64,000 nt of DNA from assembly GCA_964016885.1 (NCBI GenBank), contig OZ024749.1:7874001-7938000 (forward strand). Reading direction: 5' to 3'. The notes beneath the pieces are model-generated. The model worked only from the letters and a program-made list of their open reading frames with translations. It was not told where the DNA came from and searched no databases. The position numbers were made by a program, and so were the translations under genes. Of the stretch, positions 2,580-58,468 are shown piece after piece. Origin of the DNA: Eledone cirrhosa (Eukaryota). Each line of letters begins with the position of its first letter. Within the stretch, counting starts at the first letter, position 1.

Positions 2580-5500
2580 TCTGGTTTTATAATTTCACAA
2601 AGTTTTACCAATAGAGAGAGAGTCGGTTTCTAACATAGACACAAGACCATCTCATTGGAATTTACACAACATCAACTAGGTAGATATGTATGTATGCATT
2701 CATGTGTAGATATGGATGTTATTGTATGTGTGGATGTGGATGTTTTGAGTTGTATGTGTGCATGTGTATATGCTTTGTATCTGTACATGTGTATATGCAG
2801 TTATTAGATGCAACATTTTTGGAATGTTTTACATATTTTTACTGTTCCATTAATGGATTGTACTTGTAATTTCCTAACTAGTTGTGTTCTTTCTGTTCCT
2901 GTGAAGCCTAGCTTCTCAAGATTTGTATTGAGGCAGTTACTAACATATCCCAGTGCCCCAATAATCACAGGCATAAATCTGAAGGTGTAATCAGGGTGGA
3001 GTATCTGCAGATTTCTCATCAGTTCTGCATAAATATTCTCCTTTTCACTAATCTTTGATATTATATTGGCATCTGCTGGGCAGCTAATTTCCACTACTGT
3101 GCATGTTTTCTTCTCCCTGTCCCATATCATAATATCTGGTCTGTTATGCCTGCATTTTATTGGGGTTTTTACTGGAACATTCCACCAGTACTCTTTCATA
3201 TTATGTACATGGATGTCTTCCACATTGCTGTAGCTTTTAATGTGTTTATTATCGGGGCTATCTTTTTTACGAACTGCATTGTACAGTATTTTGGCCACTA
3301 CATCATGCCTCATAGGTAGATAGTACCGCGATGAAATCTTTGGACAGCTGCTAATGACATGGGTGATATCCTCGATGTTAGTTCTGCAGAGTCTGCACTT
3401 GTTATCACATCTAGGTGTTTTGCCTGCATCCCTATCTCTTTTGTGAATCAGGTAGTTCGTGCTAATCTCCTGTTCTTAGATTGCAAAAGCGTATCCTTCA
3501 AAGTGGGAGCCAATATAGCGGTTGTTGGTCCAAGATAGACTACTTTCCTTATCTATATTACTCTCACTCTGGGGCCTCCTGGCAACATATCCATGCATGA
3601 TTTTTTGCTGATAGGCATGCAGTTTTTCATCCATGGATTCACTGCGATACTGCTGAGCGACATCCCTGGGTGTGAGTTTTTGATTATCACACAGGGAATA
3701 TCTCTCAAGGAGTTCCTTACCAACTCTCATGATCTTATCTGTTTCATGCAGATAGACTAGCTCGAGAAGCGGGCTCCTACGCTTCGAAGTTCATAGATGT
3801 TGTCGGGGAGATATGATGCGACATTCAAATGTTGTCTGGACTGATGTTAGGCCTCTGCCTCCCTGCTTGCGTTTCAAGTAAAGGCGGTCTATGTCAATGT
3901 TGATGTGGAAGTTTCGGGTGTTGTTCAGTATTTTTCGAGTTCCAACATCAACTGCTCGGATTTCGCCTATCGTCCAATTGAGTATTCCAAACGTTGGTGT
4001 TAGGACAGGCACAGCAAACACATTGTGAGCCACTGTTTTGTTTTGCGCAGAGAGTTCCGATGACCAGATCTTTCTTAATCGGGTGTAGTATTCCCTGGTT
4101 ACGCGTTCTTCATTACAGATACCATTATAGGATATGTTCTCATCTATCCCCAGGTATCTGTAACAGTCCTTATCAGATATCGGTGAAACAGTTAGACCAT
4201 TGATGACAATGTTGCTAGATTGGGTTGTTGTTTTTCCCCGCTTTACAGTCATGTATGGGCATTTATCTTGGCCAAACTCCATTCCTATATCCTTTGAGAA
4301 CGTTGTAACCAGGTCAAGATTTTTCTTCATCCCATCCATGTTCTTGGCATAGAGTTTCAGATCGTCCACAAAGAAGTTATGGGTTAGGTTCGTATTTCTG
4401 TCCTCCTGTGAGCCAATGATGTATCCCTTACATTTCTTGTGCAGAAAAGACAAGGGGTTTAATGACAAGATGAACAATATCACAGAGAGACCGTCCTCCT
4501 GAAATATACCCCTGCAATATTTTATTTTATCAGTGAAAATAGAGTCCTCCCTCTCTGTCTTTAACCTTAGGATAGTAGCCCAAGAAGAAGACAGCCTCTC
4601 TATGGCTGTGACATAATGTCTGGGACTTTAGCAAGTTGGAGGGTCTCTATCATCCAAGAGTGGGGAACATAATCGAAAGCTTTCCTGTAGTCCAGCCAGA
4701 CTGTAGTCATATTCCTCCTAAGTTGTCGCACCTCCGACATCGCAGTTTTGTTGATTAGGAGTTGTTCAGCACATCCCCAAACCCTTTTCTTTCCAGCTCC
4801 TTGTTTATCTGTGATGATGTTATTATTTTCACAGTGATCTTGGAGGAATAGGTTCAGGCAGGCTGTATACATCTTATTCATCAGGTTCTGGCATGCAATG
4901 GGTCGGTAGTTTTTTGCCAAGTGGGTATCTTTGTTCTTGGGGACCAGTAACGTTTGTGCTAATGTCAACCATTCTAGTATAAGTGTATCTCCCTTAAGAA
5001 CTTGGTGGTAGAGGTCAGTAAGATACATCCGATAGAATATTAGTTTTTTGTACTAGTAGCCGACAATCATGTCTCTTCCTGGTGTTTTCTTATCTTGGAG
5101 TTTTCCTATCACTGTCTCAAGGGTACCCTCACTTATTTCCTATGTTTTTGTTGTAGTGTAGGAGCAATAGTTCTTTCGGATTTCTCTTAGCCACACTGCA
5201 TCTTGGTTGAAATTCTCCTTTTCACCCCATATTTTTCTCCAAAAGGAATCTTTTTAACACGTTTAGCAAGAGAGATATTTATATATGAGTTAATTTATCT
5301 CTGGAAGATTTCGTTGAGGGAAATTTTCAATTATTTATACTTTTGATTATCATTATCGATAGTATTTTCCACAACAGTCGAGGTAGACTCGGATGGTACA
5401 CGTGGTGTCACATTTATTCGATTATTATTATTATCGATAGTGTTTTCCCCAGCATTCGAGGTAGACTTAGATGGTACAGGTGGTGTCAAGTTTCTTACAG

Positions 5501-8356: not shown

Positions 8357-8640
8357 AGCAGAGGTCATATTTAATTTGTTGGGATTCAACAAGCTTAAAC
8401 ATTTTTATAACTGATATAAAGCACTCAACAGCTTAGTGGAGTAAATATAGAATATATTAATAAATGGAAACTATATTTATAAAACCATAATTATTTTATT
8501 ATATATATTTCAAGGGCGACCAAGGTAAATTATGGTGCGCTTTCATCAGATGAAATACAGATTTGTTTTATAAATAAATATTGACATACCTGGAAAAAAA
8601 GACAACCTCAACGGTTGAAATTCGCTGAATAGGGGAGATA
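8357..8640 (-). mobile_element. TA-associated element, family B (hammerhead-bearing)
   Basis: Near-identical to 18789-19040; carries the hammerhead at 8492-8557. Confidence 0.75.
8492..8557 (-). ncRNA. Type I hammerhead ribozyme, family B copy
   Basis: tatttcat CTGATGA aagcgcacca..tggtcgccctt GAA atatatat A ataaaata; one mismatch each in stems I and II. Confidence 0.7.
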
Positions 8641-8719: not shown

Positions 8720-10172
8720 ATAGATGTAATAGGGAGAGAGACAAGATAGAGGTAAAAAGGGGAGAGACAAGATAGATGTAAAAAGGGGAGAGACAAGATA
8801 GATGTAAAAAGGGGAGAGAGACAAGAAAGATGTAAAAAGGGGAGAGACAAGATAGATGTAAAGAGGGGAGAGAGACAAGATAGATGTAAAAAGGGGAGAG
8901 ACAAGATAGATGTAAAAAGGGGAGAGACAAGATAGATGTAAAAAGGGGAGAGAGACAAGATAGATGTAAAAAGGGGAGAGACAAGATAGATGTAAAAAGG
9001 GGAGAGACAAGATAGATGTAAAAGGGGGAGAGACAAGATAGATGTAAAAAGGGGAGAGACAAGATAGATGTAAAAAGGGGAGAGACAAGATAGATGTAAA
9101 AAGGGGAGAGACAAGATAGATGTAAAAAGGGGAGAGAGACAAGATAGATGTAAAAAGGGGAGAGAGACAAGATAGATGTAAAAAGGGGAGAGACAAGATA
9201 GATGTAAAAGGGGGAGAGACAAGATAGATGTAAAAAGGGGAGAGACAAGATAGATGTAAAAAGGGGAGAGAGACAAGATAGATGTAAAAAGGGGAGAGAC
9301 AAGATAGATGTAAAAAGGGGAGAGACAAGATAGATGTAAAAGTGGGAGAGAGACAAGATAGATGTAAAAAGGGGAGAGACAAGATAGATGTAATAGGGAG
9401 AGACAAGATAGATGTAAAAAGGGGAGAGACAAGATAGATGTAAAAAGGGGAGAGAGACAAGATAGATGTAAAAAGGGGAGAGAGACAAGATAGATGTAAA
9501 AAGGGGAGAGAGACAAGATAGATGTAAAAAGGGGAGAGACAAGATAGATGTAAAAAGGGGAGAGACAAGATAGATGTAAAAAGGGGAGAGACAAGATAGA
9601 TGTAAAAAGGGGGGAGAGACACGATATATGTAAAAAGGGGAGAGAGACAAGATAGATGTAAAAAGGGGAGAGACAAGATAGATGTAAAAAGGGGAGAGAG
9701 ACAAGATAGATGTAAAAAGGGGAGAGACAAGATAGATGTAAAAAGGGGAGAGAGACAAGATAGATGTAGAAAGGGGAGAGACAAGATAGATGTAAAAAGG
9801 GGAGAGACAAGATAGATGTAAAAGGGAGAGAGACAAGATAGATGTAATAGGGAGAGAGACAAGATAGATGTAAAAAGGGGAGAGAGACAAGATAGATGTA
9901 AAAAGGGGAGAGACAAGATAGATGTAAAAAGGGGAGAGAGACAAGATAGATGTAAAAAGGGGAGAGACAAGATAGATGTAAAAAGGGGAGAGAGACAAGA
10001 TAGATGTAGAAAGGGGAGAGACAAGATAGATGTAAAAAGGGGAGAGACAAGATAGATGTAAAAAGGGGAGAGAGACAAGATAGATGTAAAAAGGAGAGAG
10101 AGACAACATAGATGTAGAAAGGGGAGAGACAAGATAGATGTAAAAAGGGGAGAGACAAGATAGATGTAAAAA
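8720..10172 (+). repeat. Minisatellite, 26/28-bp unit ggggagag(ag)acaagatagatgtaaaaa
   Basis: Roughly 55 tandem units, purine-rich on the plus strand. Confidence 0.97.
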
Positions 10173-10173
10173 G

Positions 10174-11050
10174 ATGTGGTGGTGGCGGTGGTGGTGGTGG
10201 TGGTGTGAGTGGTGGTGGTGCGGGTGGTGGTGTGGGTGGTGGTGTGGGTGGTGTGGGTGGTGGTGGTGCGGGTGGTGGTGTGGGTGGTGGTGTGGGTGGT
10301 GGTGGTGTGGGTGGTGGTGGTGGTGGTGTGGGTGGTGGTTTGGGTGGTGGTGGTGTGGTGGTAGAGGTGGTAGAGGTGGTGTTGGTGGTGTTGGTGGTAG
10401 AGGTGGTGTTGGTGGTGCTGGCGGTGTCGGTGTTGTTAGCGATGGTGGTGGTAGTGGTGGTAGAGGTGGTGTTGGCGGTGGTGTGGGTGTTGGTGGTGGT
10501 GGTGATGGTAGATGTGGTGTTGGTCGTGGTCATGGTGGTGCTAGTGGTGTTGGTGTCGGTGTTGTTAGCGGTGGCGGTGATGGTGGTGGTGGTGGTGATG
10601 GTAGAGGTGGTGTTGGTGGTGGTGTTGGTGGTTGTAGGGGCGGTGTTGGTGGTGGTAGAGGTGGTGTTCGTGGTGGTGTTGGTGGCGCGTGGGGGGTGTA
10701 GTGCTGGAGATGGTGTTGGTAGAGGTGGTGTTGGTGGTGGTGGTGATGGTGATGGCGATAGTGAGCTGGTGGTGGTGATGGTGGTAGTGGGCTGGTGGTG
10801 GTGATGGCGGTAGTGTGGTGGTGGTGGTGATGGTGGTAGTGGGCTGGTGGTGTTGATGGTGATGGCGGTAGTGGGCTGGTGGTGGTGATGGCGGTAGTGG
10901 GCTGGTGGTGTTGATGCTGATGGTGTGGTGATTATGGTGATGATGTTGATTATGATTGAGAAATATGATGATTGGGATAATGATCATGATGATGATGATG
11001 GTGATGATAATGATGATGATGATGGTAACTATGATGTTGATGATGATTGA
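10174..11050 (+). repeat. (GGT)n grading into (GAT)n low-complexity tract
   Basis: Direct inspection. Confidence 0.95.
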
Positions 11051-11392: not shown

Positions 11393-11612
11393 ATTAATAA
11401 TGAGTTCAAACCACAGGCAGTCCTTTACAATGAAATAGCTCAAAGAAAAAAGTATTTCCGAGCCGTGTAATACAAGTTAATATAAATTAATATATTTGAT
11501 AAACACAAATACCAACATATCCGTGTTTGTATTGTAAACGACTAAAGTTAGCTAGATTGAAAAATACTAATTATAATAATACAGTTTGCCTGTCTCGATT
11601 TATATATATATA

Positions 11613-11644
<32 letters not shown>

Positions 11645-11682
11645 ATATATATATATATATAATATATATATATATATAATAT

Positions 11683-11714
<32 letters not shown>

Positions 11715-11748
11715 ATATATATATATATAATATATATATATATAATAT

Positions 11749-11905
<157 letters not shown>

Positions 11906-11915
11906 TATATATAAT

Positions 11916-12005
<90 letters not shown>

Positions 12006-12318
12006 ATATATATATATATAATATATAGTATATATATATTATATATATATAATATATATATATATATAATATATATATATATTATATAATATATATATAT
12101 ATATATTATATATATATATATAATATATATATATATATAATATATATATATATATAATATATATATAATATATAATATATATATAATATATAATATATAT
12201 ATATATATATATATAATATATATATATAATATATATATATATATATAATATATATAATATATATATATAATATATATAATATATATATATATATATAATA
12301 TATATATATATAATATAT

Positions 12319-12503
12319 GTAGGAGGTGAGTTTTATTGTAGTACAATAAAGCAATGCAGATATCGGATAAGAAGCACTCTACAGTTTGTGGGACTGGAGT
12401 ATGCATAATATAAGATCAAAAGATGGTTAAAGGAGTTCCATATATTTTATTATGCGCATAATAAAATATGGAACTCCTTTAACCATCTTTTGATCTTATA
12501 TTC
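12319..12503 (-). mobile_element. TA-embedded element, family C, with fold-back; duplicate at 15427-15611
   Basis: Palindrome centred on tgcgca (12455/12456 and 15563/15564); copies are 3108 bp apart. Confidence 0.75.
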
Positions 12504-12560
12504 TATATATAATATATATATATAATATATATATATATAATATTTATATATAATATATAT

Positions 12561-12617
<57 letters not shown>

Positions 12618-12630
12618 ATATATATATATA

Positions 12631-12671
<41 letters not shown>

Positions 12672-13182
12672 TATATATATATAATATATATATATATATA
12701 ATATATATATATATATATAATATATAATATATATATATAATATATATATAATATATATAATATATATATATATAATATATATATATATAATATATATATA
12801 ATATATATATATAATATATAATATATATATATATATAATATATAATATATGTATAATATAATATATATATAATATAATATATATATAATATAATATATAT
12901 ATAATATAATATATAATATATATATATATATAATATATAGATATATAATATATATATATATATATAATATATATATATATAATATATATATATATATAAT
13001 ATATATATAATATATATATATATAATATATATATATATATATAATATATATATAATATATATATATATATAATATATATATATATAATATATATATATAT
13101 ATAATATATATATAATATATATATATATAATATATATATATATATAATATATATATATATATATAATATATATAATATATAT

Positions 13183-13215
<33 letters not shown>

Positions 13216-13289
13216 ATATATATAATATATATATATATATATATAATATATATAATATATATATAATATATATAATATATATATAATAT

Positions 13290-13321
<32 letters not shown>

Positions 13322-13399
13322 ATATATATATAATATATATATATATATAATATATATAATATATATAATATATAATATAATATATATAATATATATATA

Positions 13400-13431
<32 letters not shown>

Positions 13432-13479
13432 ATATATATAATATATATAATATATATATAATATATATAATATATATAT

Positions 13480-13514
<35 letters not shown>

Positions 13515-13580
13515 ATATATATAATATATATAATATAAATATATATATATATATAATATATATAATATATATATATATAT

Positions 13581-13661
<81 letters not shown>

Positions 13662-13709
13662 ATATAATATATATATAATATATATATAATATATATATAT
13701 AATATATAT

Positions 13710-13743
<34 letters not shown>

Positions 13744-13784
13744 ATATATATATAATATATATATATAATATATATAATATATAT

Positions 13785-13827
<43 letters not shown>

Positions 13828-13890
13828 TATATATATAATATATATATATATATATAATATATATATATATATAATATATATATATATATA

Positions 13891-13935
<45 letters not shown>

Positions 13936-14039
13936 TAATATATATATATATATATAATATATAATATATATATAATATATATAATATATATATAATATAT
14001 ATAATATTTATATATATATATAATATATATATATATATA

Positions 14040-14098
<59 letters not shown>

Positions 14099-14101
14099 AA
14101 T

Positions 14102-14136
<35 letters not shown>

Positions 14137-14152
14137 ATATATATATATAAAT

Positions 14153-14187
<35 letters not shown>

Positions 14188-14203
14188 ATATATATATATA
14201 AAT

Positions 14204-14312
<109 letters not shown>

Positions 14313-14397
14313 ATATATATATATATATAATATATATATATATATAATATATATATATATATATAATATATATATATATATAATATATATATATATC

Positions 14398-14475
<78 letters not shown>

Positions 14476-14491
14476 TATATATATAATATAT

Positions 14492-14647
<156 letters not shown>

Positions 14648-14649
14648 AT

Positions 14650-14683
<34 letters not shown>

Positions 14684-14858
14684 ATCTATATATATATAAT
14701 CTATATATATATATATATATATAATATATATAATATATATATATATAATATATATATAATATATATATATATATATCATATATATATAAATATATATATA
14801 TATATAATATATATATATATATATAATATATAAATATATATATATATATAATATATAT

Positions 14859-14915
<57 letters not shown>

Positions 14916-15006
14916 TATAATATATATATATATAATAATATATATATATAATATATATATATATAATATATATATAATATATATATATAATATATATATA
15001 TATAAT

Positions 15007-15094
<88 letters not shown>

Positions 15095-15102
15095 TTATAT
15101 AT

Positions 15103-15149
<47 letters not shown>

Positions 15150-15247
15150 TATATATATATTATATATATACAATATATATATATATATAATATATATATA
15201 TATTATATAATATATATATATATATATTATATATATATATATAATAT

Positions 15248-15278
<31 letters not shown>

Positions 15279-15668
15279 ATATATATATAATATATAATAT
15301 ATATATAATATATAATATATATATATATAAATATATATATATAATATATATATATATATATAAATATATATAATATATATATATAATATATATAATATAT
15401 ATATAATATATATATATATAATATATGTAGGAGGTGAGTTTTATTGTAGTACAATAAAGCAATGCAGATATCGGATAAGAAGCACTCTACAGTTTGTGGG
15501 ACTGGAGTATGCATAATATAAGATCAAAAGATGGTTAAAGGAGTTCCATATATTTTATTATGCGCATAATAAAATATATGGAACTCCTTTAACCATCTTT
15601 TGATCTTATATTATATATATAATATATATATATAATATATATATATAATATTTATATATAATATATAT

Positions 15669-15713
<45 letters not shown>

Positions 15714-16045
15714 TATATATATAATATATATATATATATATAATATATAATATATAATATATATATATAATAATATATAATATATATATATATATATAAT
15801 ATATATATATATATAATATATATATATATATATAATATATATATATAATATATATATATATAATATATATATATATATATAATATATATAATATATATAT
15901 ATATAATATATATATATATAATATATATAATATATATATAATATATAAATATATATAATATATAATATATATAATATACAATATATATAATATATAATAT
16001 ATATAATATATATAATATATAATATATAATATATATAATATATAT

Positions 16046-16077
<32 letters not shown>

Positions 16078-16251
16078 ATATATATATATATATAATATAT
16101 ATAATATATATATATATATATAATATATAATATATATATATAATATATAATATATATATATAATATATAAATATAATATATATATATAATATCTATATAT
16201 ATATATAATATATAATATATAATATATATATATAATATATATATATATAAT

Positions 16252-16285
<34 letters not shown>

Positions 16286-16301
16286 ATATATATTTATATA
16301 T

Positions 16302-16367
<66 letters not shown>

Positions 16368-16444
16368 ATATATATATATATAAATATATATATATATAAA
16401 TATATATATATAAATATATATATATAAATATATAAATATATATT

Positions 16445-16509
<65 letters not shown>

Positions 16510-16526
16510 TATATATATATAATATA

Positions 16527-16576
<50 letters not shown>

Positions 16577-16632
16577 TATATATATAAATATATATATATA
16601 TAAATATATATATATAAATATATATATATATA

Positions 16633-16700
<68 letters not shown>

Positions 16701-17158
16701 GATATATATATATAAATATATATATATAATATATATATATGTATATATATATAATATATATATGTATATATATATATATAAATATATATATATAAATATA
16801 TATATATATAATATATATATGTATATATATATAATATATATATGTATATATATATAATATATATATATATATAATATATATATAATATATATATATATAT
16901 AATATATATATATATAATAAATATATATATATATATATATAATATATATATATATATATAATAAATATATAATAAATATATATATATAATAAATATATAT
17001 ATATAATAAATATATATAATAAATATATATATATATATATATAAACGTTAGAATATGTGTAATAAGGCCAAGACAATGCAGATATGGACATAGAAAAAAG
17101 AATGCAATAGTGAGAGATATTGATGAGAATTCGTCTTTCACCTTGAATTTATTTAAAT

Positions 17159-17197
17159 GTCCTTAATTTTCGAGATAATATCCCTTCTTCGGAGGGA
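17159..17197 (-). ncRNA. Degenerate minimal hammerhead motif
   Basis: cct CCGAAGA a gggat-att-atctc GAA aatt A agg; U4 replaced by C; palindromic stem III. The host island has the inverted 15-mer aaacgttagaatatg. Confidence 0.45.
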
Positions 17198-17298
17198 AGT
17201 AAAAGTCTCAGACCAGCGTCTAAATTTTCAATGAATCCATGCATATTCTAACGTTTATACCTCATTACACAATGCTTCAAGTGAACTATAATCTCCTC

Positions 17299-17346
<48 letters not shown>

Positions 17347-17508
17347 AATATATATATATATATATATAATAAATAAATATATATATATATATAATAAATA
17401 TATATATATATATATAATAAATATATATATATATATATAATAAATATATATATATATATATAATAAATATATATATATATATATAATAAATATATATATA
17501 TATATATA

Positions 17509-17550
<42 letters not shown>

Positions 17551-17588
17551 TAATATATATATATATAATATATATAATATATATATAT

Positions 17589-17621
<33 letters not shown>

Positions 17622-17625
17622 ATAT

Positions 17626-17659
<34 letters not shown>

Positions 17660-17667
17660 ATATATAT

Positions 17668-17701
<34 letters not shown>

Positions 17702-17728
17702 ATATATATATATATATAATATATATAT

Positions 17729-17772
<44 letters not shown>

Positions 17773-18032
17773 TATATATATAATATATATATATATATAT
17801 AATATATATATAAATATATATATAATATATATATAAATATATATATAAATATATATATATATAAATATATATATATATAATATATATATATATATAAATA
17901 TATATAAATATATATAAATATATATAATATATATATATATATAAATATATATATATATAATATATAAATATATAAATATATATATATATAATATATATAT
18001 ATATAAATATATATAATATATATATATATATA

Positions 18033-18074
<42 letters not shown>

Positions 18075-18144
18075 TATATTAATATATTTAGAAACACACA
18101 GATACATGCGGACACACACATATATACATGAATGCATCCGCACC

Positions 18145-18175
<31 letters not shown>

Positions 18176-18923
18176 CTATATATATATATATATAATGTTT
18201 TCTGCCTCGATGTATTTCCATACTTGCACGCACGGTCACACACACCTCTTAATTTGTGTTTGAGACACGTTGGCTCAGAGCTTTTCACCGGAGCGGAAAT
18301 ATTTGTTTTCTAATCTCCTGCCACCACATAAATTTGTAAATCGGTGGCCGACCGGGGGACAGAATTGTATCAGATTCCAGTTGCTAATCACTTTACTGTG
18401 TCGGCCGTCACAAACTGTCATAGCCGGCATGGGCTGGAGTTGAATTCTGTCGATCGATTGGTTATTGATTAGGCGATACCTGCTGATGAAGCTACATGCG
18501 CCGATTATGCATTTTTGCATAATATATGCAGACATGGGATGCAGTGCATCCTACTGCTGCATTAAGTGTGGCCGAAACTTGAGTCCGGAAACTACTAAAG
18601 GCACCCGTTTACGTGTGTTGTATTGAAGCGAATAACTGTTTATACTCTGGGAATGTATTCTACATTGCCTATTGAGTACGCTGAGATACAACAGGTCCTG
18701 GCATTGTTAAAAATGCTGGGTCCGTCAACTCCTCATTATATATATATAAATATAAATATATATATATATACATATATTTATATATATATGCAGAGGTTAT
18801 ATTTAATTTGTTGGGATTCAACAAGCTTAAACATTTTTATAACTGATATAAAGCACTCAACAAGTTAGTGGAGTAAATATACACTATATTAATAAATGGA
18901 AACTATATTTATAAAACCATAAT

Positions 18924-18989
18924 TATTTTATTATATATATTTCAAGTGCAAGTAAGGTAAATTATGGTGCGCTTTCATCAGATAAAATA
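18924..18989 (-). ncRNA. Type I hammerhead ribozyme, family B copy
   Basis: tattttat CTGATGA aagcgca..tgcactt GAA atatatat A ataaaata. Confidence 0.7.
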
Positions 18990-19109
18990 CAGATTTGTTT
19001 TATAAATAAATATTGACATACCTGGAAAAAAGACAACCTCCGCGAATTTCAACCGTTGAGGTTGTCTTTTTTTCCGGGTATGTCAATATTTATTTATAAA
19101 ACAAATCTG

Positions 19110-19175
19110 TATTTTATCTGATGAAAGGGCACCATAATTTACCTTGGTTGCCCTTGAAATATATATAATAAAATA
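19110..19175 (+). ncRNA. Type I hammerhead ribozyme (best copy)
   Basis: Stem I tattttat/ataaaata (8 bp); CTGATGA 19118-19124; stem II aagggc-acca/tggt-t-gccctt; GAA 19156-19158; palindromic stem III atatatat; predicted cleavage after A19167. Confidence 0.85.
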
Positions 19176-19519
19176 ATCATGGTTATATAAATATAGTTTC
19201 CATTTATTAATATAATATATATATATATATATATTTACATAAGTTTGGAGGGTATGTGCATAAACACTTACTCACCGTACTGTATTATTGCAGTATTGTC
19301 TTAGCTCAATGTACGTAGAATTTTACATTGTATATTTTTGAGTGCCATCTACCGTGTCTTCCTCTTGTTGAAGACAATTGTACCTTGGTATTTTGTAGTG
19401 ATGCTTAGTAACCCCAGCATGAACCCCTTTGTTAGCTATCTCCAATCCCCCTATTATTTTTCTGATTGTTCATGTGACTAAGTTATTCTGGAGCTTATAC
19501 TCAACACGGTATTTGTTGA

Positions 19520-24056: not shown

Positions 24057-24138
<82 letters not shown>

Positions 24139-37209: not shown

Positions 37210-39445
37210 GAGGGGGAAGGAGTTAGGTTGAGGGGGTGGAAGTTAGGTTGAGGGGGAGGGGGAAGTTAGGTTGAGGGGGAGGGGGAAGTTAGGTTGAGGG
37301 GGGAGTTAGGTTGAGGGGGGAAGGAAGTTAGGTTGAGGGGGGAAGGAAGTTAGGTTGAGGGGGGAAGGAGTTAGGTTAAGGGGGGAAGGAAGTTAGGTTG
37401 AGGGGGAGGGGGAAGTTAGGTTGAGGGGGAGTTAGGTTGAGGGGGGAAGGAAGTTAGGTTGAGGGGGGAAGGAAGTTGGTTTGAGGGGGGGAGGAAGTTA
37501 GGTTGAGGGGGAAGTTAGGTTGATGGGGGAAGGAAGTTAGGTTGAGGGGGGCAAGGAAGTTGGTTTGAGGGGGGGAAGGAAGTTAGGTTGAGGGGGGAAG
37601 GAAGTTAGGTTGAGGGGGAAGGAAGTTAGGTTGAGTGGGGGAAGGAAGTTAGGTTGAGGGGGGAAGGAAGTTAGGTTGAGTGGGGAAGGAAGTTAGGTTG
37701 AGTGGGGAAGGAAGTTAGGTTGAGGGGAGGGAAGGAAGTTAGGTTGAGTGGGGAAGGAAGTTAGGTTGAGGGGGGGAAGGAAGTTTGGTTGAGGGGGGAA
37801 GGAAGTTAGGTTGAGGGGGGGAAGGAAGTTAGGTTGAGGGGGGAAGGAAGTTAGGTTGAGGGGGGGAAGGAAGTTAGGTTGAGGGGGGAAGGAAGTTAGG
37901 TTGAGTGGGGAAGGAAGTTAGGTTGAGGGTGGGAAGGAAGTTAGGTTGAGGAGGGAAGGAAGTTAGGTTGAGGGGGGAAGGAAGTTAGGTTGAGGGGGGA
38001 AGGAAGTTAGGTTGAGGGCGGAAGGAAGTTAGGTTGAGTGGGGAAGGAAGTTAGGTTGAGGGTGGGAAGGAAGTTAGGTTGAGGAGGGAAGGAAGTTAGG
38101 TTGAGGGGGGAAGGAAGTTAGGTTGAGGGGGGAAGGAAGTTAGGTTGAGGGGAGGGAAGGAAGTTAGGTTGAGTGGGGGAAGGAAGTTAGGTTGAGGGTG
38201 GGAAGGAAGTTAGGTTGAGGAGGGAAGGAAGTTAGGTTGAGGGGGGAAGGAAGTTAGGTTGAGGGGGGAAGGAAGTTAGGTTGAGGGGAGGGAAGGAAGT
38301 TAGGTTGAGTGGGGGAAGGAAGTTAGGTTGAGGGGGGAAGGAAGTTAGGTTGAGTGGGGAAGGAAGTTAGGTTGAGGGGAGGGAAGGAAGTTAGGTTGAG
38401 GGGGGAAGGAAGTTAGGTTGAGGGGAGGGAAGGAAGTTAGGTTGAGTGGGGGAAGGAAGTTAGGTTGAGGGTGGGAAGGAAGTTAGGTTGAGGAGGGAAG
38501 GAAGTTAGGTTGAGGGGGGAAGGAAGTTAGGTTGAGGGGGGAAGGAAGTTAGGTTGAGGGGGGAAGGAAGTTAGGTTGAGGGGAGGGAAGGAAGTTAGGT
38601 TGAGTGGGGGAAGGAAGTTAGGTTGAGGGGGGAAGGAAGTTAGGTTGAGTGGGGAAGGAAGTTAGGTTGAGGGGAGGGAAGGAAGTTAGGTTGAGGGGGG
38701 AAGGAAGTTAGGTTGAGGGGAGGGAAGGAAGTTAGGTTGAGTGGGGGAAGGAAGTTAGGTTGAGGGGAGGGAAGGAAGTTAGGTTGAGGGGGAAGGAAGT
38801 TAGGTTGAGGGGGGAAGGAATTTAGGTTGAGGGGGAAGGAAGTTAGGTTGAGGGGGGAATTTAGGTGAAGGGGGGAAGGAAGTTAGGTTGAGGGGGGGGG
38901 GGTTAGGTTGAGGGGGGAAGAAAGTTAGGTTGAGGGTGGAAGAAAGTTAGTTGAGGGGAAGAAAGTTAGGTGAGGGGAGAAGAAAGTTAGGTGAGGGGGG
39001 GGAAGGAAGTTAGGTTGAGTGGGGAAGGAAGTTAGGTTGAGGGGGGGAAGGAAATTAGGTTGAGGGGGAAGGAAGTTAGGTTGAGGGGGGAAGGAATTTA
39101 GGTTGAGGGGGAAGGAAGTTAGGTTGAGGGGGGAATTTAGGTGAAGGGGGGAAGGAAGTTAGGTTGAGGGGGGGGGGGGGTTAGGTTGAGGGGGGAAGAA
39201 AGTTAGGTTGAGGGTGGAAGAAAGTTAGTTGAGGGGAAGAAAGTTAGGTGAGGGGAGAAGAAAGTTAGGTGAGGGGGGGGGAGAAAGTTAGGTTGAGGGG
39301 GGAAGAAGTTAGGTTGAGGGGGGAGAAGTTAGGTGAGGAGGAGAAGAAAGTTAGGTGAAGGGGAAGAAAGTTAGGTGAGGAGGAGAAGAAAGTTAGGTGA
39401 AGGGGAAGAAAGTTAGGTGAGGAGGGGGGAGTTCATTTGAGGGGA
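37210..39445 (+). repeat. G-rich minisatellite, ~22-bp unit ggaaggaagttaggttgagggg
   Basis: Roughly 100 units, almost C-free on the plus strand. Confidence 0.97.
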
Positions 39446-42612: not shown

Positions 42613-42924
42613 GTTATTCCGGGTTGAATCGGAGGTAACCACAGTAAGTAAGGTACTCAATACATTGCAGAGTATAAAAGTTTTAATATAGATGAGATTC
42701 TACAGGACTAGAACTGTTTCATTCTTTAGAAATCATCATGAATGAAACAGTTCTAGGCCTGTAGAATCTCATCTATATATATATATATATATATATGTAT
42801 GTAGATTATATTTAATTTGTTGGTTATATTTTTTTCTTGGAAATTTTTCTTAATAAACGTACTGAAAGATTTTAAGGAAAATTTTTGAAAATTCCTCTGA
42901 TGGTAGACGCCAACCGTCATGGTT

Positions 42925-43077
42925 GCATTTTTCAGGGTATGTCAATATTTATGTGTAAAACTAATCTATATTATATTTTATCAGATGAAAGCGCACCATA
43001 ATCTGCCTTGGTGGCCCTTGAAATATGTAAAATGAAATAAATATGGTTTTATAAATATAGTTTCCATTTGTTAATAT

Positions 43078-43082
<5 letters not shown>
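42925..43082 (+). mobile_element. Family B copy with inactivated hammerhead
   Basis: Core reads CAGATGA at 42982-42988 and lacks U16.1. Confidence 0.65.
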
Positions 43083-43108
<26 letters not shown>

Positions 43109-45835: not shown

Positions 45836-46063
45836 GAGTGCTAACTCATTCATATCGTAGGTCGAATTTGCTTGCACACCGCCAAAGATTCGTTTTACTA
45901 AGCCTCCAATTATATATATATATATATATATAAGTATTAATAAAATAGATGTTCTTTTGATCAATTACATTTTATTATACATATTTCGGATGTACAACGA
46001 CAGTATGTCGTCATCACACAACATTTTTGACATAATCATCGAATATTGTTTAACAACCTAATA

Positions 46064-48539: not shown

Positions 48540-49160
48540 ATAGCTTTCACCGTTTTTTTTACTAAAGAAATTTTAGCCTGATAATGGGGTTTAGAATCCT
48601 CAGATAAATACTCATCTGTTTCCATTTATCTGAGGGTTCTAAACCCCATTATCATCCTAAAATTTCTTTAGTCAAAAATACGGTGAAAGATATTATATAT
48701 ATATATATAACCAAAGATTAATATGGTTCGTTGATTATTCAACGAATACAGTTTTACAATAGATTAGAAGCACTCGACAAAAGATTTTCCTGGAGTATTT
48801 AATATTATTCAAAATATTAATAAATGAAAAATATTCTCATAATAAAATATATATTTTAATTATGAGAATATTTTTCATTTATTAATATTTTGAATAATAC
48901 ATATATATATTAATTCAAAATATTAACAAAAATAGACATTCGTGTGATCAAGTATATTTTATTATACATATTTCAGAGGTACTGAGCTATCTTCAACAGT
49001 ACCTCTGAAATATGTATAATAAAATATACTTGATGACACGAATGTCTATTTTTGTTAATATTTTGAATTAATATTAATAACTCCGGAAAACCATACTGTT
49101 GAGTTCTTCCAATCTATTGTAAAACTCATTCTTTGATTTATTCATTGAACCTTGTTTAAC

Positions 49161-49487: not shown

Positions 49488-49735
49488 CGTATGTGTATAT
49501 GCATGCGTGTGTGCAGTGCATATACGTATATTTGCGAATATATGCACATTTTACGTACACAAGCAAACCCACTTGCGTGTATATTTGTACAAGCACATGT
49601 GTGCAGGTACATATGCATATGTGTGTGTATAACTTTACTAAACTCTATTTTCAGTTATTGTATGCACCCACACCTATCAAGACATTTATTCATGAACCTA
49701 AATCCGAAAACACAACTAATGTCTTCGTTTTATTA

Positions 49736-50145
49736 TTGGTGGATTGTCAGTATCGGTAGAGGGTCGGACGCCATGCTTCGCAGCATAGCGCTACGGCCCT
49801 TTATGGTCTGAGTTCAAATCCCGCCGGGGTTAACTTTGCCTTTCATTCTTACGGGGTCGATAAAATAAAGTACCAGTAATGTACTGAGTTATTGCTGGCC
49901 TTGAGCCAACAGTAGAAACAATTATTGGTGGATTGGCAATATCGGTAGAGGGTCGGATGCAATGTTTTGTAGCATAGAGTTACGACCCTTTATGGTATGA
50001 GTTCAAATCTGGCCGAGGTTAACTTTGCCTTTCATCCTTACGTGGTCGATAAAATAAGGTACCAGTAATGCACTGGGATAATTGCTGTCCTTGTGCCAGC
50101 AATTATCCCAGTGCATTACTGGTACTTTATTTTATAGAAACAATT
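49736..50145 (+). mobile_element. Tandem SINE1 dimer; the second copy has an inverted tail segment
   Basis: Copies at 49736-49925 and 49926-50097; 50097-50135 is the reverse complement of the preceding tail. Confidence 0.88.
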
Positions 50146-55805: not shown

Positions 55806-56044
55806 GTGTGTGTTTGTATACACACACACATACACCGCACACATATACACATATATAATATATATATTTAAACTTGCAAATATCTATGTGATGTTAATAC
55901 GACGTTCACCTTATATTTACTTGGGCGAGCTTGTGTCAAAAATTAATCCCCTGGTTCTCTCACATTCATAGCAAATTGATAGATGTTTCCTCCCAGTGTT
56001 TTTAATATTAATAAACAATATATGCTTAAATCGACAAACGTCAG

Positions 56045-58320
56045 ATTATTTATAACAGAGATATAACCTAAATGTGATGATTGAAAAGTAAAGTACACCT
56101 TAGCGTGTTTCGAAACCAGAACTAGAGTTGATACGGCTTCACTTGACAGGATCTTCCTTAGTATATGGGCAGTTCCCATTAGTACTATCTTTTGTATTTC
56201 TCCTATACGCGGGTTTCCTGGGATTTGCGATAAGTAGTCGTTAGACCCCTTAGGTATCATTCCCAGAGCGCCTACAACCACTGGTATTGTTTTAGTTCTC
56301 AATTTCCACATTTTTCCAATTTCTATCTCCAGGTCCTTATACTTGCTCAATTTTTCAAATGTTTTTATAGATACATTCTTGTCTATTGGAACAGACATAT
56401 CAATTAGCAGGCATACCCTCCTTTGAAAGTCCTTCGATATTATATCAGGTCTATTTGCATCTATTTTTCGGTCTGTTTGGATGCTAAAGTTCCACAAGAT
56501 TGAGATGTGATCTTTTTCAAGTATGGGAGGTGGTTGATGCTCCCACCAATTCTTTTGATGGGGCAGGTCAAAATGCTTGCACATTATCCAATGTATGTAT
56601 TGTGCAGCTCTGTCATGCCTGTTTAGGTATTCGGTTGGAGCTATAGGACTGCACATTGAAATTATATGGTCAATGGTCTCTGGTTGTTTTTTGCATACAC
56701 GGCATAATGGGCTGCACCCATTTTTTATTATGTTGGCTTGGTAATTTTTTGTTGGCAGACACTGATCTTGTGCGGATATAATCAGTCCTTCAGTCTCCGA
56801 TTTCAGTCCAGAGGATGCCAACCACTGATGGGTTAAAGTTTTGTCAACATCAGGATTGTTAGCTCGCTCTGGGTATTTTCCATACAGAGGCTTTTCTTGC
56901 CATTTCTTAGCCAGTTTCTGTAGCAGTTCTTTCTTTGCAGTTACTTTTACCTGCTTTGCTTTTTCTGTGTTTTCCATTTCAGCAGTAAATGGGACTTCTG
57001 AAATTTGTAGTCCATTACTGTATCTTTGTGCATCTTTTGTAATGGAATATGATCTTTTGGTGCTTTCGTGTTTCAAAACGAGTTTGATCATCCAATCATG
57101 TGATTCCCTTAGATATGTGGATAATCCAATTGTTGCAGTTTTCAACGCAATGTCTAACTGGATTAACCCACGTCCTCCTTCTTTCCTAGGGAGATATATT
57201 CTATCTATGTCTGCCTTAGGGTGATGCATTCTGTGCATGGTTAAGAATTTTCGGATTTTTGTATCGAGCCTACGGATCTCTGTGCTTGACCAGTTGATGA
57301 CATTGTAACTGTAGGTTACTACTGGTATGGCAAGCGTGTTTATGGCATCGATCCTATTCCTTGCATTCAATTCCGTTCTTAAGATTGCTCTGACTCTGCG
57401 GTAACATTCCTTCCTTATCCTTTCCCTCATTGTCGAGTGCTTGATTCCGTCTCCTTCACAAACACCTAGATATTTGTAAGTTTGTTCTTGATCAAGCTCT
57501 CTTATCACGTTCCCCCGATCAAGATTAATGTCTGAACTCTTCAGCAGCTTTCCTCTGGTGAACGTTGCTTTGGCGCATTTATCCAGTCCAAACTCCATTT
57601 TAATGTCATCACTGAACTGCTTCACAGTGGATAATAGCCCTTGCAATTGTTCAACATTTTTTGCAAGTAGTTTCAGGTCATTCATGTAGAACAGGTGATT
57701 AATGGTTTTGTCATAGACTCTATATCCATGTTTTGTTTCATTGAGCATTTTACTTAATGGTATAAGTGCGATGCAGAATAAAAGCGGTGATAAAGAGTCA
57801 CCCTGAAAATTCCACAATTAATGTTAACTTCTCCAGCTTCCAGTGATTTTGTTTCACTATTCAAAAGGAGTGTCGTTCTCCATGTCCTCATACTGAATGA
57901 CAAAAACCTCCTGATAACGGGGGATATTTTGAAAATCTCTAAACATTTTTCAATCCAACTGTGTGGCAAACTATCAAATGCTTTTTTATAATCTATCCAA
58001 GCAATCGATAGATTTTTGTGTCTATTATGACAATCTTCCAGTATCATTTTGTTAACCAGAAGCTGATCCTTACAGCCATATGAGCCTCGTTTACACCCTT
58101 TCTGCTCAATGGGAAATAGGTCATTTGTTATCAGGTGGTCATATGTGTATTCAGTTAGGACTGATGTTAAAATTTTATACATTGTGGTCAAGCAGGTTAT
58201 CGGTCTGTAATTTTTGGGATTGTTTGTCTCATCATTCTTCGGTAGCAGGAATGTAATGCCGTTAACTAGCCATGATGGTATCTTTTCTGGCTCCTTAACT
58301 ATTTCATTGTAAAGTTGAAA
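56045..58320 (-). pseudogene. 5'-truncated R4/Dong-like retrotransposon, well preserved
   Basis: NYRPITCL, WIDYKKAFDSLPHSW (57754-58191); frameshift in GIFQGDSLSP; FYMND in place of YMDD; RIYLPRKEGGRGL; CRVC..ETIDHIISMC; RHD; NRPDI..LIDMSVP..KLSKY; PVVVGALG. Confidence 0.92.
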
Positions 58321-58468
58321 AGTTTGTTGAAATGAATATCAAGCCACTACCTGCAGCCTCAGATATTCAGGACGTATCGGAGGGTTCTTGCTGTTCCCAG
58401 CAAGCATGCCTTTTGAAGCGTTCCAAAAAGCGTGAAGGGGCCAATTTTCTTTAACCATCCCTGAAAAC
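58321..58468 (-). pseudogene. R4/Dong-like 3' end fragment of the 35830-36407 family
   Basis: Near-identical to 36210-36357 (KACLLGTARTLRYVLNI* plus 3' UTR). Confidence 0.85.

What the first reader, a model, noticed from the sequence alone, without database searches (positions are those of the whole stretch)
19110..19175. Intact AU-rich type I hammerhead with palindromic stem III
All core residues are present, with an 8-bp stem I and about 10-bp stem II. Stem III is ATATATAT, too short to be stable alone but self-complementary, as expected for hammerheads that act as dimers. It is also the same sequence as the target microsatellite. Four copies show graded decay (8492, 18924, 19110, and dead at 42974). 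Base pair 10.1-11.1 is A-U rather than the usual G-C.
Basis: partly seen in the sequence, partly recalled or inferred. Interest (0 to 1): 0.75.

Follow-up and report, generated by a model that had tools for sequence, protein, structure and literature searches.

The report
Hammerhead motif in Penelope-like retroelement
A short mobile repeat found thousands of times beside TA microsatellites in this animal genome carries a hammerhead-ribozyme motif whose catalytic letters stay fixed while its second stem changes by matched pairs across six sub-lineages, so it is likely a self-cutting RNA of the kind already known from Penelope-like retroelements.

Summary
The motif is at 19110-19175 (+) exactly as described. 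A hammerhead descriptor hits once in the window and in 1 of 200 shuffles. It is not a lone ribozyme or a MITE. It lies in the sense copy of a roughly 200-300-nt retroelement, joined head-to-head to an inverted copy inside (TA)n.

The 3-Gb genome holds six young sub-lineages (A-F). One is a 3.8-kb element with terminal repeats and a 661-aa ORF whose model best matches telomerase RT. This is Penelope-like architecture.

Across the lineages:
- The 12 constrained core positions never change and only N7 does.
- Helix II has both-side changes in 5 of 6 pairs, and 0 of 500 shuffles reach the observed covariation.
- Helix I changes only to G-U.

Weaknesses of the hammerhead reading:
- No Rfam hammerhead model matches, even at E<=10.
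- The 10.1-11.1 pair is A-U.
- Helices I and III are all A-U.
- Every lineage keeps a C-C mismatch in helix II. The window copy is a rare variant (32 versus 5277 exact matches) that closes it.
- "Graded decay" is wrong: 42974 belongs to another sub-lineage and has private core mutations.

Cleavage, dimer action and expression are untested. This is a new member of a known kind.

The parts
19110..19175 (+). Hammerhead-type motif of the sense (right) copy. Helix I 19110-19117 with 19168-19175; core CUGAUGA 19118-19124; helix II and loop 19125-19155; G12-A15.1 19156-19159; helix III A15.1-U16.1, U15.2-A16.2 with loop AUAU 19159-19166; predicted cut after A19167.
   Evidence: The cleavage site is predicted, not shown.
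19093..19191 (+). Possible distal extension of helix I: tttataaaac 19093-19102 with gttatataaa 19182-19191 (9 of 10 pairs here). It is separated from the proximal 8 bp by an internal loop.
   Evidence: Read. The same two 10-mers are present in lineages A-E and do not vary, so there is no covariation. Inferred.
19042..19225 (+). Sense (right) copy of the short retroelement, sub-lineage A.
   Evidence: Its 5' end lies at window-equivalent 19042-19051 in 27 of 28 independent genomic loci. The arm 19068-19225 is 94% complementary to 18874-19031.
18874..19031 (-). Inverted (left) copy, head-to-head with the right copy.
   Evidence: In other loci this partner is cut short at 10 different inner positions.
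18924..18989 (-). Hammerhead-type motif of the inverted copy. The core is intact; 6 of 9 helix II pairs remain.
18801..18873 (-). 3' 'tail' extension present only on the inverted copy. The same sequence lies at 8380-8441.
   Evidence: In lineage D the tail runs to ...aaaacttttgca followed by (TA)n.
18737..18800 (.). TA-rich microsatellite flank (left target).
19226..19241 (.). (TA)n flank (right target).
8380..8628 (-). Another sub-lineage A copy with tail. Its motif is at 8492-8557(-), and helix I has one C-A mismatch (tatttcat).
42921..43089 (+). Sub-lineage B copy. Its motif at 42974-43039 has private core changes: U4 to A, and U16.1 to A.
45968..46025 (-). Degenerate copy related to sub-lineage F, ending in (TA)n.
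   Evidence: (31.6 bits).
48955..49026 (.). Head-to-head pair of F-like copies, both cut within helix II. The CUGAUGA half is absent.
   Evidence: (about 32 bits on both strands).

Best explanation
The 66-base motif at 19110-19175 is a type I hammerhead-shaped sequence in the sense copy of a short Penelope-like retroelement that lies head-to-head with a second copy inside a (TA)n microsatellite, and it is predicted, not shown, to cut its own transcript after A19167.

Shown here:
- The element belongs to a superfamily with at least six young sub-lineages (A-F) in this 3-Gb genome, each with hundreds to thousands of copies.
- One lineage (D) exists as a 3.8-kb unit. It has the motif in both terminal repeats, an upstream inverted 5'-truncated copy, an optional 3' tail, (TA)n at both ends, and a 661-aa ORF whose model is a reverse transcriptase closest to telomerase.
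- Another lineage (F) also occurs as a 4 x 176-bp tandem array.
- Across lineages the catalytic letters are fixed, helix II keeps pairing through matched changes, and helix I tolerates only G-U changes.

Inferred:
- The short copies are non-autonomous and are copied by the RT-endonuclease of the long element through target-primed reverse transcription at nicked (TA)n.
- The inverted partner and the tail are by-products of that mechanism, as described for Penelope-like elements.
- The RNA motif folds around the CUGAUGA/GAAA core and cleaves 3' of A17. Activity is probably weak alone and helped by pairing of two copies through the self-complementary helix III, or by the element's protein. The tandem arrays are where unit-length RNA would be released.
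For: 1. Motif and chance. All core letters and three helices are present. The descriptor hits once in the window and in 1 of 200 shuffles.

2. Conservation. Representatives of A-F align with 32 of 66 invariant columns. These include all 12 constrained core positions, and the only core change is N7 (U to A in D). Among 126 parsed copies CTGATGA occurs in 118, GAAA in 123 and H17 = A in 126. In 2368 laid contigs of one run, no variant reaches 10% at any core position.

3. Covariation.
- 94.4% of cells are paired, against 39-59% when the partner is slid.
- Helix II has both-side changes in 5 of 6 pairs: A-U/G-C at pairs 1 and 2, G-C/A-U at pairs 3 and 5, C-G/U-A at pair 6.
- 0 of 500 shuffles reach the covariation score or the number of compensated cells.
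- Four helix I pairs vary, all to G-U.

4. Pattern of divergence. Between F and A-E, identity is 89-97% in the motif outside helix II, 39-58% in helix II and its loop, and 49-71% in the flanks.

5. Context.
- In 20 of 28 A loci there is an adjacent inverted partner. It is full length in 9 and cut at 10 different points in 11.
- L145 shows the inverted copy, a terminal repeat with the motif at 603, the ORF at 1007-2989, a terminal repeat with the motif at 4428, the tail, then (TA)n.
- The ORF model has pLDDT 82.9 and its best PDB match is TERT 3du5_A, E 8.8e-10.
- Its relatives give weak GIY-YIG and RT matches.

6. Literature (passages read).
- Penelope-like elements carry hammerheads in their terminal repeats, prefer (TA)n, and form inverted 5'-truncated partners and tails (PMC8557442; PMC11167929).
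- Their hammerheads have a large helix II, sometimes a bulge in it, and a small palindromic helix III (PMC4209133).
- A shrimp example in that paper's supplementary Fig. S3 reads AGCC/GGCU, that is A10.1-U11.1.

7. The same genome has canonical Hammerhead_1 matches: 18 over the cut-off of 74 scored. They lie in another short (TA)n-flanked, head-to-head family with the same 2-bp helix III.
Against: - No Rfam hammerhead model matches at gathering score, at E<=10 on 401 nt, or at E<=10 on 86 nt.
- 10.1-11.1 is A-U (A, B, E) or G-U (C, D). It is the usual G-C only in F. PMC4209133 calls G10.1-C11.1 highly conserved.
- All six lineages keep a C-C mismatch at the fourth pair of helix II (44 of 58 distinct variants).
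- Helix I and helix III are all A-U or G-U.
- In the short folds, A, C and D give minimum-energy structures that depart from the hammerhead fold. In the longer folds, those for A and C pair the 5' strand of helix I with GAAAUAUA. In one search the enforced hammerhead fold is 0.2-4.2 kcal/mol above the minimum at 37 C. Only B, E and F give stems I and II as the minimum.
- In the window the two arms are 94% complementary, so a read-through transcript would prefer a 158-bp hairpin.
- No RNA data could be had.
- Inner ends of truncated partners do not pile up at the predicted cut.
- Published Penelope-like hammerheads cleave poorly in vitro (PMC4209133). One was dispensable for insertion in vitro and left no read ends at its site (PMC11167929).
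- Flanking blocks such as atggttttataaatatagtttcc are also invariant in A-E, so conservation alone is not specific to the core.
Confidence: 0.75

Rival explanations
1. The motif descends from a hammerhead but no longer cleaves. On this reading the conserved letters and the helix II hairpin, with its C-C mismatch, serve as a binding or initiation site for the element's reverse transcriptase-endonuclease.
For: - The invariant C-C mismatch, the non-G-C 10.1-11.1 pair and the weak A-U helices.
- No Rfam match.
- Alternative minimum-energy folds.
- Published low activity of Penelope-like hammerheads, and a protein-assisted one that is dispensable for insertion in vitro (PMC4209133; PMC11167929).
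- No excess of copy ends at the predicted cut.
Against: - The letters that stay fixed are exactly the 12 catalytic-core positions, and the one that varies is N7, the free position. A protein site has no reason to follow that rule.
- Lineage F restores G10.1-C11.1.
- The tandem 176-bp array is the arrangement in which cleavage is useful.
Confidence: 0.17
2. The element is a foldback or MITE-type DNA transposon with long terminal inverted repeats that targets TA, and the hammerhead likeness is chance in AT-rich DNA.
For: - 158-nt arms that are 94% complementary with a 36-nt spacer.
- TA-rich flanks.
- A genome of 3 Gb would give on the order of 200 chance descriptor hits at the rate.
Against: - The two ends are not equivalent. 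The sense copy has a fixed 5' end (27 of 28 loci), while the inverted partner is absent in 8 of 28 and cut at 10 different points in 11.
- The tail is on one side only.
- The same terminal sequence bounds a 3.8-kb unit in direct repeat, with a telomerase-like RT ORF.
- Covariation and core invariance across six lineages.
Confidence: 0.03
3. The motif is a real ribozyme that works as a monomer, so the self-complementary helix III is incidental.
For: - Helix III is 2 bp with a tetraloop. PMC7229834 describes this as the more stable, invertebrate-like form.
- Most copies are solitary or inverted, not tandem.
Against: - Both pairs are A-U.
- The 8-mer stays self-complementary in all six lineages, with G-U in B, E and F.
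- Tandem units exist.
Confidence: 0.3

Closest known systems
Hammerheads of Penelope-like elements (minimal and atypical variants; Cervera and de la Pena 2014, PMC4209133)
   Same: - Type I topology.
- Location in the terminal repeats of an RT plus endonuclease retroelement.
- Large helix II with an irregularity in its middle.
- Two-pair helix III of palindromic sequence.
- Hundreds to thousands of copies with covariation between consensus families.
   Different: - 10.1-11.1 is A-U or G-U in five of six lineages.
- There is no unpaired nucleotide between A9 and 10.1.
- Helix I is longer (8 bp).
- A C-C mismatch is fixed at the fourth pair of helix II.
- Activity is untested.
Metazoan non-LTR retrozymes (Cervera and de la Pena 2020, PMC7229834; Li et al. 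2026 preprint 10.64898/2026.07.22.740005)
   Same: - Short (about 170-400 nt), AT-rich, non-coding units with a type I hammerhead that are related to Penelope-like terminal repeats.
- Lineage F forms a 4 x 176-bp tandem array.
   Different: - The window copy, and most copies sampled, are dispersed singles or head-to-head pairs, not tandem.
- Circular RNA was not testable.
Rfam Hammerhead_1 (RF00163)
   Same: The same core, the same topology and a 2-bp helix III as in the canonical matches found in this very genome.
   Different: - It scores below every reporting threshold tried.
- Helix II is 8-9 bp with a loop of up to 13 nt, against 4 bp with a 6-nt loop in the canonical matches.
Poseidon element PAc of Anolis (Frangieh et al. 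2024, PMC11167929)
   Same: An optional 3' tail on a fraction of copies, an AT-rich target, and a hammerhead in the terminal repeat.
   Different: - The tail here is about 75-135 nt rather than 30-40 bp.
- The ORF does not overlap the motif.
- No biochemical data.
Dimeric hammerheads of newt satellite 2 (Forster et al. 1988, as cited in PMC4209133; paper itself not read)
   Same: A helix III too weak alone whose sequence pairs with a second copy.
   Different: Here it is an 8-nt (UA)4-type stretch, and the repeat is mostly not tandem.

Membership tests
Hammerhead ribozyme, type I | Core C3 U4 G5 A6 N7 G8 A9 ... G12 A13 A14, A15.1-U16.1, H17 not G | tested here: met
   Invariant in lineages A-F except N7.
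Hammerhead ribozyme, type I | Three helices around the core, with helix I open-ended | tested here: met
   Helix I is 100% paired. Helix II shows covariation. Helix III has 2 invariant pairs.
Hammerhead ribozyme, type I | G10.1-C11.1 pair (highly conserved, not absolute) | tested here: not met
   A-U in the window copy and in A, B and E. G-U in C and D. G-C only in F.
Hammerhead ribozyme, type I | Match to a curated covariance model (Rfam hammerhead families) | tested here: not met
   No hammerhead family listed.
Hammerhead ribozyme, type I | Tertiary contact between helix I and helix II | not testable with these tools
   Only an internal loop and a distal helix can be drawn.
Hammerhead ribozyme, type I | Mg2+-dependent self-cleavage 3' of H17 | not testable with these tools
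   No RNA run is listed. The runs that were laid are contigs.
Penelope-like element | ORF with a telomerase-like reverse transcriptase | tested here: met
   - L145 ORF of 661 aa, with YRDD invariant in 32 relatives.
- Model pLDDT 82.9; best PDB match is TERT 3du5_A, E 8.8e-10.
- Pfam and PDB sequence searches found nothing.
Penelope-like element | GIY-YIG endonuclease domain | tested here: inconclusive
   - C-terminal IIY...YVG...R...H read by eye.
- PF01541 matches 2 of 32 relatives, best E 0.0055.
- Atlas look-alike clusters carry PF01541 in 26-38% of members.
- No fold search of the domain alone was made.
Penelope-like element | Pseudo-LTRs, an upstream inverted 5'-truncated copy and an optional tail | tested here: met
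   L145, 28 A loci, tails.
Penelope-like element | Insertion bias for microsatellites such as (TA)n | tested here: met
   (TA)n at the ends in the window and in loci of A-F.
Metazoan non-LTR retrozyme | Tandem repeats of 150-450 bp, each with a type I hammerhead | tested here: not met
   The window copy is an inverted pair. The feature is met only by lineage F at L159, 4 x 176 bp.
Metazoan non-LTR retrozyme | Expression as small circular RNA | not testable with these tools
MITE / foldback DNA transposon | Two equivalent terminal inverted repeats with fixed ends | tested here: not met
   variable inner truncation of one arm only. The tail is on one side only.

The most novel reading that the evidence does not exclude
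This family defines a separate hammerhead subclass. Helix II has a fixed C-C mismatch at 10.4-11.4 and a purine-U pair at 10.1-11.1, and these make the ribozyme inert on its own. It would be switched on only by the element's own telomerase-like RT-endonuclease, or by pairing of two copies through the (UA)n-like helix III. The mismatch would be the protein's handle, coupling RNA processing to retrotransposition.
Probability: 0.12. Interest if true: 0.6.

Novelty: new member of a known kind. Interest (0 to 1): 0.4.

Why it matters
- Curated covariance models miss a hammerhead-type family with several thousand copies. Exact 25-mers of its two halves occur 3756 and 5277 times. Ribozyme censuses based on Rfam therefore undercount such genomes.
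- One genome holds an autonomous element, short dependants, inverted pairs and a tandem array that all share one motif. That is a compact natural series for asking what Penelope-like hammerheads are for, which is still an open question.
- The fixed C-C mismatch and the natural rare variant that closes it offer a ready-made structure-function comparison.
- In kind, however, this is what is already known from Penelope-like elements and retrozymes.

Tried and rejected
- **Rfam.** I searched at gathering score over the window and at E<=10 on 401 nt and 86 nt. No hammerhead family was listed. The listed weak matches (snoRNA, miRNA and sRNA families) reflect the long hairpin and AT-richness, and I set them aside.
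- **RNA evidence.** No RNA holder is listed. The three runs laid are contigs of unknown kind, so no starts or ends could be read.
- **Does the cut RNA end (...GAAAUAUAUAUA) prime on the (TA)n target?** Copies that run from helix III straight into (TA)n number 31, against 3756 with the normal junction. The idea is not supported.
- **Do copies begin at the predicted cut?** Eight 5'-truncated copies seen and eleven truncated partners end at scattered points, none exactly at the site.
- **The 661-aa ORF.** Pfam, PADLOC and PDB sequence searches gave nothing for the ORF itself. Identity rests on the fold search and on weak matches of relatives.
- **Earlier notes of this scan.** Nothing was found by place or by sequence.
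- **Lineage E at N7.** I first took E to have N7 = C from one copy. The majority (27 of 33) has U, so only D varies at N7 at lineage level.
- **Host organism.** The best named relatives of the ORF are from the cephalopod Argonauta hians, at 41-45% identity. This is only a weak hint to the host group.
- **Print search.** A search of papers for hammerhead ribozyme with cephalopod, octopus and retrotransposon listed no paper on such a motif there. I made no other print search for this exact family.

Full report
**Observation.** The stretch 19110-19175 (+) reads tattttat CTGATGA aagggcacc-ataatttacctt-ggttgccctt GAAA tatatat a ataaaata. This gives:
- an 8-bp all-A-U helix I
- the full CUGAUGA / GAAA core
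- a helix II of 6 bp, a 1-nt bulge and 3 bp
- A15.1-U16.1 and U15.2-A16.2 closing a four-base loop, with the 8-mer AUAUAUAU self-complementary
- A at position 17

A descriptor requiring helices of at least 5, 4 and 2 contiguous pairs finds this one site in the window. It finds any site in 1 of 200 dinucleotide-preserving shuffles. At that rate a 3-Gb genome would still yield a couple of hundred chance hits, so the motif alone proves little.

**Curated models do not see it.** Rfam 15 gives no match at gathering score in the window. No hammerhead family is listed at E<=10 on 401 nt or on 86 nt. The same genome does contain canonical Hammerhead_1 matches. Of 74 scored candidates, 18 lie over the 34-bit cut-off, at 34.4-37.8 bits. 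They read CCTGATGAGTCC-taaata-GGACGAAAC-att-GTC and lie in another short repeat that ends in (TA)n and occurs head-to-head. Even canonical copies barely pass. A motif with a 9-bp helix II, a 12-nt loop and A-U next to the core would be expected to fall well below.

**What the motif sits in.**
- It lies in the right arm of a 352-bp inverted pair: arms 18874-19031 and 19068-19225, 158 nt, 94% complementary, 36 nt apart. A mirror motif lies at 18924-18989 (-). Further copies are at 8442-8628 (-) and 42921-43089 (+).
- The window is G000:C9:7874001-7938000 of a 3.0-Gb assembly, and the arm has at least 1169 first-look candidates at 96-97% identity.
- In 28 independent loci the sense copy starts at window-equivalent 19042-19051 in 27.
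- An adjacent inverted partner is present in 20 of 28. It is full length in 9 and cut short at 10 different inner positions in 11 (18836 to 19012). Eight have none, counting one locus with only TA-rich similarity (first seen).
- An extra 3' tail (18801-18873) is present on one side only.
- Both outer ends abut (TA)n.

This is not how a MITE with equivalent terminal repeats behaves. It is what is described for Penelope-like elements (PLEs). From passages of PMC8557442, these have a strong bias for (TA)n, an inverted 5'-truncated copy next to the 5' end, an optional tail at one end, and hammerheads in the pseudo-LTRs. PMC11167929 explains the tail by internal initiation of reverse transcription.

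**Sub-lineages.** Searching the genome with diverged copies met by chance in the fetched loci gave six young lineages.

| Lineage | Search call | First-look candidates | Identity |
|---|---|---|---|
| A | 6 | >=1169 | 96-97% |
| B | 27 | >=1090 | 96-98% |
| C | 32 | >=1658 | 97-98% |
| D | 38 | >=1167 | 41 listed copies at 100% |
| E | 39 | >=583 | 99% |
| F | 60 | >=340 | 98-100% |

Their majority motifs are:
- A: tattttat CTGATGA aagcgcacc..ggt[t/c]gccctt GAAA tatatat a ataaaata
- B: the same with bulge g, then tatgtat a atgaaata
- C: CTGATGA g[g/a]gcgtacc-aaagtttt-ggtaccctt GAAA tatatat a atagaata
- D: tattttgt CTGAAGA gggcatacc..gatatccct GAAA tatatat a atgaaata
- E: tattttgt CTGATGA aagcacacc..ggtgtcctt GAAA tatgtat a ataaaata
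- F: tattttgt CTGATGA ggacgtac-tgtt-gtacctcc GAAA tatgtat a ataaaatg

The 42974 copy of the window belongs to B. In that alignment 35 of 37 arms read CTGATGA, so the window copy's CAGATGA is private. The copies are therefore not a decay series.

**Comparative test.**
- Ten representatives, all real copies, align with 32 of 66 invariant columns. All 12 constrained core positions are among them, and the only core change is at N7, the position that may be any base.
- On the hammerhead structure 94.4% of cells are standard pairs, against 39-59% with the 3' partner slid by 1-3 columns.
- Helix II has changes on both sides in 5 of 6 pairs.
- Helix I varies at 4 of 8 pairs, always to G-U.
- 0 of 500 shuffles reach the observed covariation score or number of compensated cells.
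- The shuffle control ignores relatedness, and with about six lineages the number of independent events is small. Even so, pairs 1, 2, 3, 5 and 6 change in different lineage combinations.
- Between F and the others, identity is 89-97% in the motif outside helix II, 39-58% in helix II and its loop, 49-60% in the 5' flank and 64-71% in the 3' flank.
- In 126 parsed copies CTGATGA occurs in 118, GAAA in 123 and A17 in 126.
- In 2368 contigs of one public run laid at 80% likeness, no variant reaches 10% at any core position. The listed variable places fall in helix II, its loop, the stretch just upstream of helix I, and one position in the 3' strand of helix I.
- A second organism's run holds three contigs with the C-type motif.

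**An odd, conserved flaw.** The fourth pair of helix II is C-C in all six lineages, in 44 of 58 distinct helix II variants. The window copy carries G at 19128, which closes it. Only 3 of 46 aligned arms do so. Genome-wide the exact 25-mer with G occurs 32 times and with C 5277 times. The 10.1-11.1 pair is A-U (A, B, E), G-U (C, D) or G-C (F). PMC4209133 calls G10.1-C11.1 highly conserved. Its supplementary Fig. S3, as extracted, nonetheless lists a shrimp PLE hammerhead with AGCC/GGCU.

**The autonomous partner.** Several D copies lie 0.8-4.5 kb apart. Locus L145 reads, in order:
- (TA)n
- an inverted truncated copy, with the motif on the minus strand at 121
- a terminal repeat with the motif at 603
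- an ORF at 1007-2989
- a terminal repeat with the motif at 4428
- a tail ending ...aaaacttttgca
- (TA)n

Evidence on the 661-aa ORF:
- It has no Pfam, PADLOC or PDB sequence match.
- It has 158 relatives at E<=0.001, and the best named ones are Argonauta hians hypothetical proteins.
- YRDD and a C-terminal C-x-C...C-P...C / Y-x-G...R...H pattern are invariant among 32 aligned relatives.
- Two relatives match RT models at E about 2e-4 to 5e-4.
- Two of 32 relatives match GIY-YIG at best E 0.0055.
- Atlas look-alike clusters carry GIY-YIG in 26-38% of members.
- Its AlphaFold model (pLDDT 82.9) is closest to the telomerase catalytic subunit 3du5_A (E 8.8e-10), followed by other reverse transcriptases.

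The RT is therefore shown at fold level and the endonuclease is only indicated. Lineage F also forms a 4 x 176-bp direct tandem array (L159). This is the arrangement of metazoan non-LTR retrozymes (PMC7229834; preprint 10.64898/2026.07.22.740005, abstract and section 14).

**Mechanism, with its status.**
- Shown: the motif, its context and its conservation pattern.
- Inferred: short copies are copied by the long element's enzyme at nicked (TA)n.
- Inferred: the RNA folds as a type I hammerhead and cuts after A17.
- Inferred: activity is weak alone and is helped by a second copy or by protein.

Folding energies neither help nor hurt much.
- For the 55-66-nt motifs, the enforced hammerhead fold lies 0.2-4.2 kcal/mol above the minimum at 37 C.
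- Stems I and II are the minimum-energy fold for B, E and F.
- In the longer folds, A and C prefer pairing of the 5' strand of helix I with GAAAUAUA.
- The enforced fold includes the C-C position, so those figures are rough.

Helix III stays self-complementary in all lineages, but in B, E and F it reads UAUGUAU. Identity with the (TA)n target is therefore not conserved. Copies running from helix III directly into (TA)n are rare, 31 against 3756. Truncation points do not cluster at the predicted cut. I found nothing that ties cleavage to integration. This agrees with the report that a PLE hammerhead was dispensable for insertion in vitro (PMC11167929).

**Verdict.** The hammerhead reading is supported by comparative evidence but not by any direct evidence of cleavage. 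The element is a Penelope-like retroelement and not a lone ribozyme or a MITE. In kind it matches the PLE hammerheads described in 2014 (large, irregular helix II and a small palindromic helix III), so I file it as a new member of a known kind. What is unusual is its invisibility to Rfam, the purine-U pair next to the core and the fixed C-C mismatch.

Noticed in passing
window 11601-18087: A 6.5-kb (TA)n array (3410 copies, 81% matches). Further (TA)n arrays lie at 24061, 26694, 43284, 44558, 48378 and 55550. This is abundant target sequence for (TA)n-seeking elements.
   Followed up: no
window 8720-10173 and 10176-10930: A 26-bp satellite (54.5 copies) followed by a (GTG)n-like array. Both begin about 90 nt inward of the inner end of the 8442-8628 copy. 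Whether they belong to a longer element is unknown.
   Followed up: no
window 37212-39427: A 22-bp tandem repeat, 101 copies, 88% matches.
   Followed up: no
window 55943-58338 (-) and 2804-5052 (-): Long open frames with reverse-transcriptase-like sequence of the LINE sort (624 aa plus 194 aa; 223, 278 and 150 aa). They are unrelated to the element studied.
   Followed up: no
window 49732-50098: A 189-bp unit repeated 1.9 times. Its consensus contains a tRNA-like T-arm stretch (GAGTTCAAATCCCGCCGAGG), so it is possibly a tRNA-derived SINE.
   Followed up: no
L031-L042 (for example G000:C3:10277077-10277121): A second, unrelated short repeat family with a canonical Hammerhead_1 match (34-38 bits). 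It is also (TA)n-flanked and head-to-head.
   Followed up: partly
L159 1003-1710 (G000:C27:7480863-7481515): Four direct tandem units of 176 bp of lineage F, each with the motif. The arrangement is retrozyme-like.
   Followed up: partly
all lineages; window 19128 with 19152: The fourth pair of helix II is a C-C mismatch in every lineage. No explanation was found.
   Followed up: partly
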